Origin: Naegleria gruberi
Lineage: Eukaryota
Assembly: GCA_000004985.1 (NCBI GenBank)
Contig: GG739272.1
Strand: one strand, 5' to 3'
DNA length: 2,310 nucleotides
Under the pieces are notes generated by a model that searched no databases, had not been told where the DNA came from, and saw only the letters and a list, made by a program, of their open reading frames with translations. The number at the start of each line of letters is the position of its first letter. Position 1 is the stretch's first letter. Of the stretch, positions 2 through 2,310 are shown piece after piece. A program made the translations under genes and the position numbers.

Positions 2-703
2 TACATTTCCAAGAGGAAACAAATTGCCATTCATACTTTTCTAAGTGAAGTATTGGAGAGGGACGATTTGTCAATCAAGTGCAATAGATGTCGTATTGAA
101 ATGGAACATTTACATGAGGTTAATGCATTCACTCTTCATCATGTCATGTATAAAGATGATGACTTTACAAAGACATTTAGGAGTACAACAAAATTCATTC
201 CCGAATTCAAAAAGTTTGGTGCTGATTGGTTCAAGAAGAATGAAAAGTTGGAAGTATTGTGTAGACCTTGTCATGGTTTGGAACATGCAAGGAATGTTGA
301 AGGTGGTTCTAATTGGCAATATTGTCATGAAAAGATGATCACCTTGATGGGAGGAAAATGTCAGGAATGTGGCCTGTCTTTTGAATCCAATTCAGAATTG
401 GGAAAGATCTTTCATGTGCATCACAAGAATAGGGATGGTGTGAAGAAGAGAGCCCAAGCAACAGAAGATATTGATGATGAAGAGAGGGAAGTAGCCCAAC
501 ATGTTAATGAGTACAAGTTAATTCTTGCAATGACTGAAGAGCAACAAGTAGAAAAGTTGAAGGAATTTGAATTGCTATGTGATGGATGCCATTATTTTGA
601 GCACATGGAAAAGCATGCAAGATCGGAAGTTATCGATTTAGGAATGAAGGAGAGAATGATGAACTTGTTGAGTTTTCAAAGAGTATTGTCTATGGAAAAA
701 TAA
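2..703 (+). CDS. Partial (5'-truncated at the window edge or by an unseen intron) CDS for a small Cys/His-rich protein with two tandem HNH / His-Me-finger nuclease-like motifs. Stop is TAA at 701-703.
   Basis: Frame 2 is open from nt 2 with no upstream stop. The track's 'M' at 53 is TTG. The first real ATG is at 101, which would delete the first CxxC. Repeat 1: C-N-R-C ... FTLHHV ... LEVLCRPCHGLEH. Repeat 2: C-Q-E-C ... IFHVHHKNRDG ... VNEY ... LLCDGCHYFEH. Both fit the CxxC / HH / N / CxxCH-x3-H architecture of HNH (pfam01844-type) domains, though the spacers are longer than usual. About 220 codons, no internal stops, codon usage consistent with the neighbouring gene. Confidence 0.6.
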   Translation, partial: YISKRKQIAIHTFLSEVLERDDLSIKCNRCRIEMEHLHEVNAFTLHHVMYKDDDFTKTFRSTTKFIPEFKKFGADWFKKNEKLEVLCRPCHGLEHARNVEGGSNWQYCHEKMITLMGGKCQECGLSFESNSELGKIFHVHHKNRDGVKKRAQATEDIDDEEREVAQHVNEYKLILAMTEEQQVEKLKEFELLCDGCHYFEHMEKHARSEVIDLGMKERMMNLLSFQRVLSMEK

Positions 704-801: not shown

Positions 802-821
802 AAAATTAAGGATCCGCAACT
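802..821 (+). repeat. Copy 3 of the core repeat, on the opposite strand relative to copies 1 and 2, in the intergenic/3'UTR region: AAAATTAAGGATCCGCAACT.
   Basis: 18 of 20 nt are identical to the AAAATTAAGGATCTGCAATT core of the intron at 1991..2046. The two T->C differences create a BamHI site and the start of an XhoI site. Confidence 0.55.
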
Positions 822-895
822 CGAGTGACTTGTTCACTACTTCAAGTATTTCCAATTACTTCATTTCCAGATATATTAGTGATATTTCCAATCAT

Positions 896-1207: not shown

Positions 1208-1795
1208 TTATTTTTTATTCTTGAAAGGAACCTTAAATTTCTTCACAACAGCAGCAGCAACAGCAGTACCCTTAGTAATGGGTGTTTGGATTTGTTTTGG
1301 AGATTGATCAATTCTAGTGACATATCCATGAGTGAGTTCATTCCAAAATTTGCCAGATTCAGCTGGTGTTTCCTCCTTCTCTTCAAAGGCTTGCCTAATA
1401 GCATTGTAATGCTTTTTAACTCCAACGATTGACCAGTCCAACTTTACACCAATCAAAATTGGGAATTTATCTAACAAATTTCCAAGGTGGAAAAGCTTGG
1501 TCATTTTGGAAACACCTACGGAAGGGGCAAACTTGTGGAAGGCATCTTTCTTTTTCAATTGTCTGTTACTGGCAAGTTCTTTGGAAAGTTGAATGAAAAC
1601 TCGCAAGCTGATTAAATTTTTGCAATATACACTTGAATTCAATGCTTTGGAAATGTCAGTCTTTAATCTGTGGACATCACCATCAAATATTGTTCCAATT
1701 ACTTGTTCACTAGCACTAGTGATTAGATTCTGTTTCAATTTTTGTAAGGTAATCCTATTAGCTTCATCCAACTTTTGAACAGCATATTCTATTAG
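1208..1795 (-). CDS. Terminal coding exon (195 codons plus TAA stop at 1208-1210) of a multi-exon gene. Uncharacterised, likely nuclear/nucleolar protein. Sequence runs LIEYAVQKLDEANRITLQKL...KGTAVAAAVVKKFKVPFKNKK.
   Basis: Long minus-strand ORF (track 1208..1828). Its first 11 track residues (MRICNFIVPSQ, starting with TTG) are intron read-through. A 3' splice site CTCAG| lies at 1796-1797, immediately upstream, in phase with exon 2. Confidence 0.75.
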   Translation of the reverse strand, partial: LIEYAVQKLDEANRITLQKLKQNLITSASEQVIGTIFDGDVHRLKTDISKALNSSVYCKNLISLRVFIQLSKELASNRQLKKKDAFHKFAPSVGVSKMTKLFHLGNLLDKFPILIGVKLDWSIVGVKKHYNAIRQAFEEKEETPAESGKFWNELTHGYVTRIDQSPKQIQTPITKGTAVAAAVVKKFKVPFKNKK

Positions 1796-1843
1796 CTGAG
1801 AAGGAACAATAAAATTACAGATCCTCAATTTATAAATACTTAC
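1796..1843 (-). other. Spliceosomal intron (48 nt) between exon 2 and exon 3. GTAAGTATTTATAAATTGAGGATCTGTAATTTTATTGTTCCTTCTCAG.
   Basis: GTAAGT donor after AAT, and a pyrimidine-rich ...TTCCTTCTCAG acceptor. Removal joins exon 2 to the long downstream ORF in frame. Confidence 0.75.
1811..1843 (-). repeat. Copy 2 of the same repeat: GTAAGTATTTATAAATTGAGGATCTGTAATTTT.
   Basis: Direct alignment with 2014..2046 on the minus strand. Identical GTAAGTATT, AAATT, AGGATCTG and AATTTT blocks. Confidence 0.7.
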
Positions 1844-1990
1844 ATTCTTTTGCTTCTTTCCATTCTTTAAAGAGTTTCTTTTTCTCTTCTTTGATTTTGC
1901 CTTTTCCTCCTCAGAATTACTATAGGAATCATTCTCATCATGTTCATTATCGGATACATGTTCAAACTCTTCTGATAATTTATCTTGATC
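1844..1990 (-). CDS. Internal coding exon, 147 nt / 49 codons, phase 0/0: DQDKLSEEFEHVSDNEHDENDSYSNSEEEKAKSKKRKRNSLKNGKKQKN. Acidic/Ser-rich with a KKRKR basic NLS-like patch.
   Basis: Bounded by AAG|GAT at the 3' splice site (1991-1992) and AAT|GTAAGTAT at the 5' splice site (1843). Its length is a multiple of 3 and joins exon 1 and exon 3 in frame with no stops. The composition continues the acidic theme of exon 1. Confidence 0.7.
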
Positions 1991-2046
1991 CTTATTACAA
2001 TTGAAATGAATAAAAAATTGCAGATCCTTAATTTTGTAATACTTAC
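1991..2046 (-). other. Spliceosomal intron (56 nt) between exon 1 and exon 2 of the minus-strand gene. GTAAGTATTACAAAATTAAGGATCTGCAATTTTTTATTCATTTCAATTGTAATAAG.
   Basis: Canonical GTAAGT donor directly after codon GAT, and an AG acceptor. Removing it restores the frame (phase 0). Stops are present in frame inside it. Confidence 0.7.
2014..2046 (-). repeat. Copy 1 of a short dispersed repeat forming the 5' part of the intron: GTAAGTATTACAAAATTAAGGATCTGCAATTTT.
   Basis: 28 of 33 nt are identical to the 5' part of the other intron (1811..1843). Core AAAATTAAGGATCTGCAATT. Confidence 0.7.
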
Positions 2047-2154
2047 ATCATGATGGCTTTTCTCGGAAGCATCTTGTTGTTGATCATTATCATCTTCCAT
2101 TTGATCTAATATTTTCTCCTCATCATCAGAAGGTTCTGTTTCAATATCTTGTTT
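2047..2154 (-). CDS. Coding exon containing the ATG at 2100-2098 (MEDDNDQQQDASEKSHHD). The reading frame is also open upstream to a putative 3' splice site at 2155-2156 (KQDIETEPSDDEEKILDQ-MEDD...). The exon is therefore either 2047..2100 (ATG start) or 2047..2154 (internal exon).
   Basis: The real ATG at 2100 is followed by an in-frame acidic peptide ending GAT|GTAAGTAT (5' splice site at 2046). Upstream of the ATG the same frame stays open for 18 codons with the same Asp/Glu-rich composition, up to TAATAG| at 2155-2160. Confidence 0.6.
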
Positions 2155-2210
2155 CTATTATTTAAATAATATTCAATTGTATATACTTGTATTCAAATAA
2201 ATAAACAAAC
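2155..2210 (-). other. Putative 56-nt intron (GTTTGTTTATTTATTTGAATACAAGTATATACAATTGAATATTATTTAAATAATAG). Alternatively, 5'UTR if translation starts at ATG 2100.
   Basis: GT...AG boundaries, an AT-rich interior with stops in all frames, and flanking open frames in phase with similar acidic composition. Confidence 0.35.
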
Positions 2211-2310
2211 CTTAATCACTTTCGTAATTACATCATTATCTTCTTCATCATCAATTTGGATTGGATGGAGAGTACGAAATACCTTCAACTGGAATATCCA
2301 ATTGGATTCA
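2211..2310 (-). CDS. Possible further upstream coding exon (partial, runs off the window): ...ESNWIFQLKVFRTLHPIQIDDEEDNDVITKVIK, ending AAG|GTTTGT.
   Basis: There are no stops in this frame across 2211..2310. It ends with AAG followed by a GT-starting AT-rich segment (2155..2210). That segment carries stops in all frames and ends TAATAG. The acidic DDEEDND stretch matches the downstream exons. The 5' splice site GTTTGT is weaker than the GTAAGTAT used by the other two introns, so this is tentative. Confidence 0.35.

What the first reader, a model, noticed from the sequence alone, without database searches (positions are those of the whole stretch)
1796..2046. Two introns of the same gene share a near-identical 33-nt core including the 5' splice site (intron duplication or introner-like element)
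On the minus strand, intron 1991..2046 begins GTAAGTATTACAAAATTAAGGATCTGCAATTTT. Intron 1796..1843 begins GTAAGTATTTATAAATTGAGGATCTGTAATTTT. The similarity is 28/33 identical and continues into an AATTTT(TT)ATT segment. The 48-nt intron is essentially homologous along its whole length to the first 40 nt of the 56-nt intron. The flanking exon sequences are not similar, so this is not a tandem exon duplication. Unrelated short introns do not normally share more than the 6-8 nt splice consensus. Sequence-similar introns at different positions are the hallmark of recent intron gain by insertion of introner-like elements, or of intron transposition. The third putative intron (2155..2210) lacks the motif, so the motif is not simply this genome's branch-site consensus.
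Basis: seen in the sequence. Interest (0 to 1): 0.7.

Follow-up and report, generated by a model that had tools for sequence, protein, structure and literature searches.

The report
Two look-alike introns in one Naegleria gene
Two tiny introns 203 bases apart in one orphan gene of the amoeba Naegleria gruberi really are near-copies of each other, most likely because one was duplicated from the other. Whether they belong to a genome-wide family of intron-making mobile elements could not be tested here.

Summary
The window is a complete 2310-bp scaffold of Naegleria gruberi.

The similarity is real:
- 28/33 ungapped and 30/35 including two exon bases.
- 19/24 beyond the 9-nt 5' splice-site block (P about 1e-5; 1 of 20,000 shuffles).
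- Flanking exons are unrelated, and neither intron resembles any exon.
- There are no TIRs, no TSDs, no stable RNA fold and no Rfam match.

- A third copy of the 17-18-nt core (AAAATTAAGGATCYGCAA, 17/18) lies at 802-819 on the plus strand, outside any annotated intron (p about 0.007).
- The putative third intron has an in-frame alternative 5' site and weakly resembles intron 1 (p about 0.009).

No tool here reaches N. gruberi DNA, so the genome census could not be run. Scans of metagenomic, viral and prokaryotic collections gave only unrelated hits. A published survey scores N. gruberi introner-negative, but its BLAST cut-off would probably miss a 35-nt match.

My best reading is paralogous introns from a local duplication (0.45). 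The rivals are a dispersed short introner family (0.2), a shared cis-motif (0.2), chance (0.1) and an annotation artefact (0.05). Interest is moderate.

The parts
1991..2046 (-). Intron 1 of the minus-strand gene (56 nt, phase 0, GTAAGT...AAG). It must be removed to keep the reading frame.
   Evidence: Sequence. The deposited protein P0001 joins ...SHHD to DQDKL... exactly here. 56 is not a multiple of 3, so retention shifts the frame (ORF 1867..2100).
1796..1843 (-). Intron 2 of the same gene (48 nt, phase 0, GTAAGT...CAG). It is in frame and free of stop codons, so retention would add VSIYKLRICNFIVPSQ.
   Evidence: Sequence. P0001 joins ...KQKN to LIEYAV... here. Its read-through translation is open: in the ORF 1208..1828, which starts inside the intron, and in my reading of the sequence.
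2014..2048 (-). Shared block, copy A: 2 exon bases (AT), the 5' splice site GTAAGTATT, and the core ending in AATTTT.
   Evidence: the repeat finder family D1, 30/35. 28/33 within the intron. 19/24 beyond the splice-site block, P = 1.2e-5.
1811..1845 (-). Shared block, copy B.
   Evidence: Same evidence as copy A.
802..819 (+). Third copy of the 18-nt core, AAAATTAAGGATCCGCAA. It matches intron 1's core 17/18. It lies 99 nt downstream of the stop codon of the plus-strand ORF, in that gene's sense orientation, and outside any annotated intron. The flanks are not similar.
   Evidence: Inverted repeat I9, 94%. Pattern AAATTRAGGATCYGYAA matches exactly 3 times in the window. A 17/18 match was reached in 2 of 300 dinucleotide shuffles. 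Local alignment I1-C3 was reached in 0 of 3000 shuffles.
2155..2231 (-). Putative intron 3. An in-frame alternative donor, GAT|GTAATTAC, sits at 2231 (77 nt). It is not part of the deposited model, which starts at 2154.
   Evidence: P0001 starts KQDIETEPS at 2154. Weak resemblance to intron 1, including ATTAAGG: 26 of 3000 shuffles.
2047..2154 (-). Exon between putative intron 3 and intron 1 (acidic, low complexity: KQDIETEPSDDEEKILDQMEDDNDQQQDASEKSHHD).
1844..1990 (-). Exon between introns 1 and 2 (DQDKLSEEFEHVSDNEHDENDSYSNSEEEKAKSKKRKRNSLKNGKKQKN).
1208..1795 (-). Last exon (195 aa plus stop). It encodes a conserved C-terminal domain shared with one N. gruberi paralogue, EFC36291.
   Evidence: 39% identity over 100 aa, E = 2e-18.

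Best explanation
The two segments are genuine short U2-type spliceosomal introns of a Naegleria-specific orphan gene, and they are paralogues. One was copied from the other, or both from one local source, and inserted 203 nt away in the same orientation in the same gene.

The copied unit is essentially the whole functional intron:
- the donor site GTAAGTAT, which is a perfect U1 complement (established knowledge);
- a core of about 21 nt, AAATTRAGGATCTGYAATTTT;
- a pyrimidine-rich tail.
Within the core, CTGYAAT lies 19 nt (intron 2) and 27 nt (intron 1) upstream of the acceptor, the right distance for a branch region. This is an inference and the sequence fits the yUnAy consensus poorly.

Because the unit brings its own splice signals, it is removed from the mRNA wherever it lands. 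Both insertions fall in a low-complexity charged region where a phase-0 insertion is easily tolerated.

The likely routes, all inferred and none shown, are:
- templated insertion during double-strand-break repair, copying a nearby sequence with AT microhomology at the 5' junction;
- reverse splicing of the excised intron into the same transcript, followed by reverse transcription and recombination.

About 15-20% divergence outside the splice site argues that the event is not very recent.
For: - The intron boundaries equal the deposited model.
- Intron 1 is needed for the frame.
- The C-terminal exon is truly coding, being conserved with paralogue EFC36291.
- Similarity is 30/35 and is the top repeat in the window.
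- 19/24 beyond the splice site, P = 1.2e-5, 1 of 20,000 shuffles. The gapped alignment spans nearly all of intron 2, 0 of 3000 shuffles.
- The core sits at the same offset (+13) from the donor in both introns, as seen directly in the sequence.
- Similarity ends 2 nt into the exon. The flanks are unrelated (8/30, 12/30; p = 0.16, 0.89), and the introns match no exon. This excludes exon-intron tandem duplication and intron creation from duplicated exon sequence.
- TRF finds no long-period tandem array.
- Intron gain by intron duplication or transposition and by DSB repair are documented routes (review PMC3488318).
Against: - There are only two clear copies. With roughly 10^4 same-gene intron pairs in a genome (my estimate), a per-pair P of 1e-5 to 5e-5 under a simple shuffle null is not negligible.
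- No transcript evidence could be consulted. Intron 2 is in frame and stop-free, so its splicing rests only on the deposited prediction.
- A third core copy outside annotated introns and the weak copy at putative intron 3 are not predicted by a single local duplication. They fit a dispersed element or a functional motif better.
- In the 18-nt core, intron 1 is closer to the intergenic copy (17/18) than to intron 2 (15/18).
- The exon junctions (GAT|GAT, AAT|CTA) are not MAG|R proto-splice sites, which is unexpected for reverse splicing.
Confidence: 0.45

Rival explanations
1. Both introns, and perhaps the 802-819 copy and putative intron 3, belong to a dispersed family of very short (about 50 nt) introner-like elements in N. 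gruberi. Such elements insert at the DNA or RNA level and carry their own splice signals.
For: - Similarity spans nearly the whole intron and stops at the boundaries, which is the operational introner criterion (for the criterion, for the alignment).
- The flanking exons are unrelated.
- A further core copy lies in non-intronic DNA 1 kb away in inverted genomic orientation. Known introner families also have copies outside genes (the 'Blast Back Outside Genes' column of PMC9860276 Suppl. Table 5).
- Introner families with median lengths down to 30 nt, and 64-bp families, are reported.
- The host scaffold is itself part of a multi-copy region.
Against: - No copy in an unrelated gene has been seen.
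- There are no TIRs or TSDs (sequence; the 7-nt ATTACAA/TTGTAAT pair in intron 1 is at chance expectation and is absent from intron 2).
- There is no stable fold: z = -0.15 and -0.29.
- The systematic survey scores N. gruberi NEG-M and N. fowleri as ie = 0.
- The third copy shares only 18 nt and lacks the donor site.
- Divergence of 15-20% argues against recent activity.
Confidence: 0.2
2. The introns are of independent origin, or old, and share a selected cis-element. The 17-18-nt core AAAATTAAGGATCYGCAA would be a protein- or RNA-binding site, for example an intronic splicing element overlapping the branch region or a transcriptional control site. The rest of the similarity would then be splice consensus and T-richness.
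For: - The core is the best-conserved part and recurs without any intron context at 802-819, always in the sense orientation of the local gene.
- The identity profile is uneven: 11/11 at the donor, 0/3 at +10..+12, and 19/21 at +13..+33.
- The core is partly palindromic (AAAATT..GATC..AATTTT) (I1), as dimeric binding sites often are.
- CTGYAAT lies at branch-point distance from the acceptor.
Against: - The identical offset from the donor in both introns is unexplained unless position matters.
- The palindrome arm is missing in copy 3.
- No such motif is described for Naegleria in the searched literature.
- The third copy is only p about 0.007.
Confidence: 0.2
3. The similarity is chance. It would arise from the strong donor consensus, AT-rich low-complexity intron composition, and selection of this pair from a very large scan.
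For: - 8-9 of the 28 matches are the U1-complementary donor.
- The tail is T-rich.
- A simple shuffle null ignores shared compositional structure of introns.
- The first-stage scan looked at many windows.
- After removing the donor, the candidate branch region and the T-run, 10/11 remains (my estimate, P about 2e-4).
Against: P = 1.2e-5 anchored, 1 of 20,000 with offsets, and 0 of 3000 for the gapped alignment. The G/C-containing centre AGGATCTG is shared exactly in a context of about 20% G+C.
Confidence: 0.1
4. Annotation artefact. One or both segments are not spliced: the gene predictor inserted short introns into a decaying or misassembled repeat copy. The similarity would then be a short repeat in non-coding or coding DNA.
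For: - The scaffold is tiny (2310 bp), both genes are partial, and the region is multi-copy.
- Intron 2 is in frame without stops.
- No transcript data were available.
Against: - Both have perfect GTAAGTAT donors and AG acceptors.
- All junctions are phase 0.
- Removing intron 1 restores a charged low-complexity frame. This frame resembles the architecture of paralogue EFC36291: a charged N-terminal region followed by the conserved domain.
Confidence: 0.05

Closest known systems
Introner-like elements of fungi (Dothideomycetes; Torriani et al. 2011, as reviewed in PMC3488318) and the short introner families of the Gozashti et al. surveys (PMC9860276, PMC12130899)
   Same: These are sequence-similar spliceosomal introns at non-homologous positions. 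Similarity runs from donor to near the acceptor and stops at the exon boundary. The length class is comparable (families with median length 30-654 nt; 64-bp families in Alternaria/Parastagonospora).
   Different: Only two clear copies are seen here, and both lie in one gene. There is no evidence of copies in unrelated genes, no stable secondary structure, and 15-20% divergence. N. gruberi is scored introner-negative in the survey.
DNA-transposon-derived introners (Micromonas, Aureococcus, Polarella and others; PMC9860276)
   Same: An element that carries or creates splice sites on insertion. Copies can also lie outside genes.
   Different: No TIRs or TSDs are present at either intron (read from the sequence). 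The unit is far shorter than typical elements of this kind.
Intron gain during double-strand-break repair (Daphnia pulex; reviewed in PMC3488318)
   Same: A new short intron arises at a novel site with short junctional homology. Here AT is shared just upstream of both donors.
   Different: Daphnia gains are flanked by short direct repeats and are not copies of a neighbouring intron. No flanking direct repeat is seen here.
Intron creation by internal gene duplication (Gao & Lynch 2009, cited in PMC3488318)
   Same: It is an intragenic, short-range event.
   Different: That model predicts similarity between the intron and the adjacent exon. This was tested and not found.

Membership tests
U2-type spliceosomal intron | GT...AG boundaries with a donor complementary to U1 | tested here: met
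   Both introns start GTAAGTAT and end AG. The U1 complementarity is established knowledge, not computed here.
U2-type spliceosomal intron | Removal restores a continuous reading frame that agrees with a gene model | tested here: met
   The P0001 sequence joins the exons exactly at both introns. Intron 1 (56 nt) is required for the frame. Intron 2 (48 nt) is frame-neutral.
U2-type spliceosomal intron | Spliced transcripts observed | not testable with these tools
   No N. gruberi transcript data are reachable. RNA-seq exists as PRJEB23822.
Introner / introner-like element family | At least four sequence-similar introns in non-paralogous genes at non-homologous positions (criterion of PMC9860276) | not testable with these tools
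   No N. gruberi genomic DNA beyond the window is reachable. The window holds two clear copies, both in one gene. The published survey gives ie = 0 for N. gruberi NEG-M, but at a threshold that would probably miss this pair (my estimate of E about 2e-5 for the pair).
Introner / introner-like element family | Similarity extends to within a few bases of both intron boundaries and not into the exons | tested here: met
   The alignment runs from exon -2 to position 47 of 48 of intron 2. The 3' third is compositionally weak. The exon flanks are unrelated.
Introner / introner-like element family | Terminal inverted repeats and/or target-site duplications (DNA-transposon introners) | tested here: not met
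   Junctions are CATGAT|GT...AG|GATCAA and AAGAAT|GT...AG|CTAATA. No direct repeat is shared by both, and no TIR is conserved between the two introns.
Introner / introner-like element family | Stable predicted secondary structure (fungal ILEs) | tested here: not met
   MFE -4.0 and -4.8 kcal/mol, z = -0.15 and -0.29 against shuffles.
Introner / introner-like element family | Lineage-specific presence: absent at the same position in orthologues or paralogues | not testable with these tools
   The only relative found is paralogue EFC36291.
Tandem exon-plus-intron duplication | Flanking exon sequence similar in the same register as the introns | tested here: not met
   8/30 and 12/30 anchored identity; local alignment p = 0.16 and 0.89. 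TRF finds no long-period repeat.
Known structured RNA (e.g. intronic snoRNA) | Match to an Rfam covariance model | tested here: not met
   Only two sub-threshold snoRNA hits (E = 0.3-0.4), both in the upstream exon and neither in the introns.

The most novel reading that the evidence does not exclude
Naegleria gruberi (Discoba, Heterolobosea) carries a family of ultra-short (about 50 nt) intron-generating elements. Each would consist of a perfect donor site plus the core AAATTRAGGATCYGYAA. BLAST-based introner surveys would have missed the family because the elements are too short and AT-rich. On this reading the window holds two intronic members, one degenerate member at putative intron 3, and one non-genic copy at 802-819. 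This would be the first introner family in Discoba and among the smallest known.
Probability: 0.15. Interest if true: 0.65.

Novelty: new member of a known kind. Interest (0 to 1): 0.35.

Why it matters
Clear cases of paralogous introns are uncommon outside a few fungi, algae and marine protists. According to the review read here (PMC3488318), the mechanism of intron gain is still largely unresolved.

Reports cited in that review say that many N. gruberi introns occupy the same positions as introns in orthologous genes of other eukaryotes, which is taken to mean they are ancient. The systematic survey scored N. gruberi as introner-free. A demonstrable recent intron duplication there would therefore be a useful data point.

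If the block proved to be multi-copy, it would extend introners to Discoba. It would also show that current BLAST-based screens miss very short elements. As it stands the evidence is one pair in one orphan gene, so the value is that of a specific lead that is cheap to test.

Tried and rejected
- Reaching N. gruberi DNA. The look-up of encoding contigs has no record for P0001, P0002 or P0003. Protein searches returned only NCBI gene models and no assemblies.
- Collection scans for the motif.
  - Viral contigs: 0 hits for both patterns.
  - Metagenome contigs: 9 hits, all unrelated. By my reading, four look like a conserved bacterial coding sequence (gyrB-like). None has a donor site upstream.
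  - Genome contigs: one chance hit in an Anaerobiospirillum MAG.
- Searching the proteome for read-through translations of the block (VSIxKLRICNF). I abandoned this, and the third protein search was left unused.
- Structured-RNA or snoRNA hypothesis. The folds are no better than shuffles and Rfam gives nothing.
- Tandem duplication and exon-derived intron hypotheses. Both were rejected.
- Viral origin of the locus. There are no relatives of the multi-copy ORF in IMG/VR or PDB. The single-sequence AlphaFold model was unusable (pLDDT 38), so no fold search was run.
- P0007, a 2235-aa NACHT-LRR protein from an ENA metagenome, matched the C-terminal domain at E = 2e-9. I judged it spurious (repetitive LRR protein).
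- Literature. No paper links Naegleria with introners or describes an intronic motif. The N. gruberi genome paper is not held.

Full report
**Source and gene context**

A protein search with the last minus-strand exon returns a single hit at 100% identity. It is 'predicted protein, partial [Naegleria gruberi]' (EFC35405.1 / XP_002668149.1, 280 aa), on a contig of exactly 2310 bp. The window is therefore a whole small scaffold of the N. gruberi NEG-M assembly.

The deposited protein reads ...SEKSHHD|DQDKLSEE... and ...NGKKQKN|LIEYAVQK....

The C-terminal 195 aa form a real, conserved domain. An exhaustive HMMER search of 1.84 billion representatives finds one relative, N. gruberi EFC36291 (39% identity over 100 aa, E = 2e-18 pairwise). 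It has the same architecture: a charged low-complexity N-terminal region followed by the conserved domain. A second hit, a NACHT-LRR protein from a metagenome, I judged spurious. The host gene is thus a Naegleria-specific orphan.

On the plus strand, the ORF at 2..703 is a truncated copy of a Cys/His-rich gene. At least four near-identical copies are annotated in N. gruberi, and the full length is 456 aa. The scaffold is therefore a piece of multi-copy DNA.

**The observation**

- Identity is 28/33 ungapped. It is 30/35 with the two exon bases AT, and this is the top-ranked direct repeat in the window.
- GTAAGTAT is the perfect complement of the U1 5' end (established knowledge), so I discounted the first 9 nt. 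The remaining anchored comparison is 19/24, binomial P = 1.2e-5 at the introns' own composition.
- Allowing offsets, 1 of 20,000 shuffles reaches the observed best window.
- A gapped local alignment covers 40 of 49 columns, nearly all of intron 2, and is reached by 0 of 3000 shuffles.
- The 3' third is T-rich and carries little information. Secure similarity runs from -2 to +33.
- The exons on either side are unrelated: 8/30 and 12/30 anchored, p = 0.16 and 0.89. Neither intron resembles any exon on either strand.
- TRF finds no long-period array.

The exon-duplication explanations are excluded.

*A third copy of the core.*
- AAAATTAAGGATCCGCAA at 802-819 on the plus strand matches intron 1's core 17/18 (I9).
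- The degenerate 17-mer AAATTRAGGATCYGYAA occurs exactly three times in the window.
- The copy lies 99 nt past the stop codon of the plus-strand ORF, in that gene's sense orientation, and outside any annotated intron. Its flanks are unrelated to the introns.
- In a test that is not circular (any 18-mer of either intron against shuffled remainder), 17/18 is reached in 2 of 300 shuffles. This is suggestive, not compelling.
- In the core, intron 1 is closer to this copy (17/18) than to intron 2 (15/18).

*A weak copy at the putative third intron.*
- The proposed donor of putative intron 3 is GTGATTAAG|GTTTGT, which sits on an ATTAAGG.
- An alternative donor, GAT|GTAATTAC, lies 21 nt upstream at 2231 and is in frame.
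- With that donor, the 77-nt intron aligns weakly along its length with intron 1 (26 of 3000 shuffles).
- The statement that the third intron lacks the motif is therefore only partly true.

*A recurrence at the acceptor junction.* TAAGGATC recurs at the acceptor junction of intron 1 (AATAAG|GATCAAG). By my estimate an 8-mer like this is expected by chance.

**Anatomy**

- All three introns are phase 0.
- Intron 1 shifts the frame if retained. Intron 2 is frame-neutral and stop-free.
- The core is partly palindromic (AAAATT..GATC..AATTTT, I1), but the right arm is absent in copy 3.
- CTGYAAT within the core lies 19 and 27 nt upstream of the acceptors. That is a plausible branch-region distance, although the sequence fits yUnAy poorly (inference).
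- Neither intron folds better than shuffles (z = -0.15 and -0.29), and Rfam finds nothing in them.
- No TIR is shared by the two introns and no TSD flanks either. The junctions are CATGAT|...|GATCAA and AAGAAT|...|CTAATA.

**Genome-wide test**

This is the decisive test, and it could not be run.
- The contig look-up has no N. gruberi record.
- The protein databases hold only the NCBI models.
- Motif scans of IMG/VR (0 hits), JGI metagenomes (9 unrelated hits) and GTDB genomes (1 chance hit) gave nothing relevant.
- A proteome search for read-through peptides is not feasible, because the E-value cap excludes 11-residue matches.

**Literature**

- Gozashti et al. 2022 included Naegleria_gruberi_strain_NEG-M and N. 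fowleri and scored both ie = 0 (Suppl. Table 4).
- Their pipeline needs blast e <= 1e-5 and families of at least four introns.
- By my rough estimate this pair would score about 42 bits, or E about 2e-5 against the intron set. The negative result therefore argues only against a large, young family.
- Introner families as short as 30-64 nt are known elsewhere.
- The 2012 review lists intron duplication or transposition, DSB-repair-associated gain, and internal duplication as candidate routes. It stresses how little direct evidence exists.
- No paper links Naegleria with introners or with an intronic motif.

**Interpretation**

The most economical reading is that the two introns are paralogous (about 0.65 overall). 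I split this into two parts.
- A local, intragenic duplication of a self-sufficient intron unit (0.45). It would arise by templated DSB repair or by reverse splicing plus reverse transcription. Both routes are inferred.
- Membership of a dispersed short introner-like family (0.2).

The rivals are:
- A shared cis-motif (0.2). This is kept alive by the non-intronic core copy and by the uneven identity profile.
- Chance plus splice consensus (0.1). This matters given how many intron pairs and windows a scan covers.
- An annotation artefact (0.05).

About 15-20% divergence outside the donor indicates that the event is not very recent.

**Verdict**

In kind it is a new member of a known phenomenon. 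Interest is moderate (0.35), because a single inexpensive census of the public assembly, plus one RNA-seq mapping, would settle the question.

Noticed in passing
window 2-703 (+): This is a truncated Cys/His-rich ORF with motifs CRPCHGLEH, HVHHKN and CDGCHYFEH. Its only Pfam signal is a sub-threshold HNH hit (E = 0.029). It is a multi-copy N. gruberi orphan with four annotated copies at about 97% identity: EFC35404 on this scaffold, EFC47221, EFC35473, and EFC43390, the 456-aa full-length form. It has no relatives in IMG/VR or PDB. It could be the gene of an uncharacterised mobile or repeated element.
   Followed up: partly
window 802-819 (+): A third copy of the intron core, AAAATTAAGGATCCGCAA (17/18 to intron 1), lies 99 nt downstream of the plus-strand ORF's stop codon and outside any annotated intron. 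A GT lies 13 nt upstream of its AAATT (790), against 12 nt in the introns. AG acceptor-like sites lie at 846 and 870, so an unannotated 3'-UTR intron is conceivable but unsupported.
   Followed up: partly
Using it would drop VITKVIK from the protein and gives a weak full-length resemblance to intron 1 (p about 0.009).
   Followed up: partly
window 810-826 (+): A BamHI site (GGATCC) and an XhoI site (CTCGAG) lie 4 nt apart in otherwise AT-rich DNA, overlapping core copy 3. This is probably coincidence. It is worth a glance for cloning-linker contamination in a tiny Sanger-era scaffold.
   Followed up: no
window 1796-1843 (-): Intron 2 is 48 nt, in frame and without stop codons. Retention would insert VSIYKLRICNFIVPSQ. 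Read in the same frame, intron 1 begins VSITKLRICNF, and two of the five nucleotide differences between the introns (TTA/TTG, TGC/TGT) are synonymous in that frame. The numbers are too small to interpret.
   Followed up: no
window 1984-1994 (-): TAAGGATC, the centre of the core, recurs across the acceptor junction of intron 1 (AATAAG|GATCAAG). By my estimate an 8-mer recurrence like this is at about chance expectation.
   Followed up: partly
window 1208-1795 (-): The C-terminal domain of the host protein has a weak sub-threshold DUF7625 hit (E = 0.006). It has a single paralogue, EFC36291, sharing the motif ESGKFWNEL. The family appears restricted to N. gruberi at phmmer sensitivity.
   Followed up: partly
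window 1246-1265: A short (CAACAG)x3.3 microsatellite lies inside the last exon, coding an Ala/Val run.
   Followed up: no
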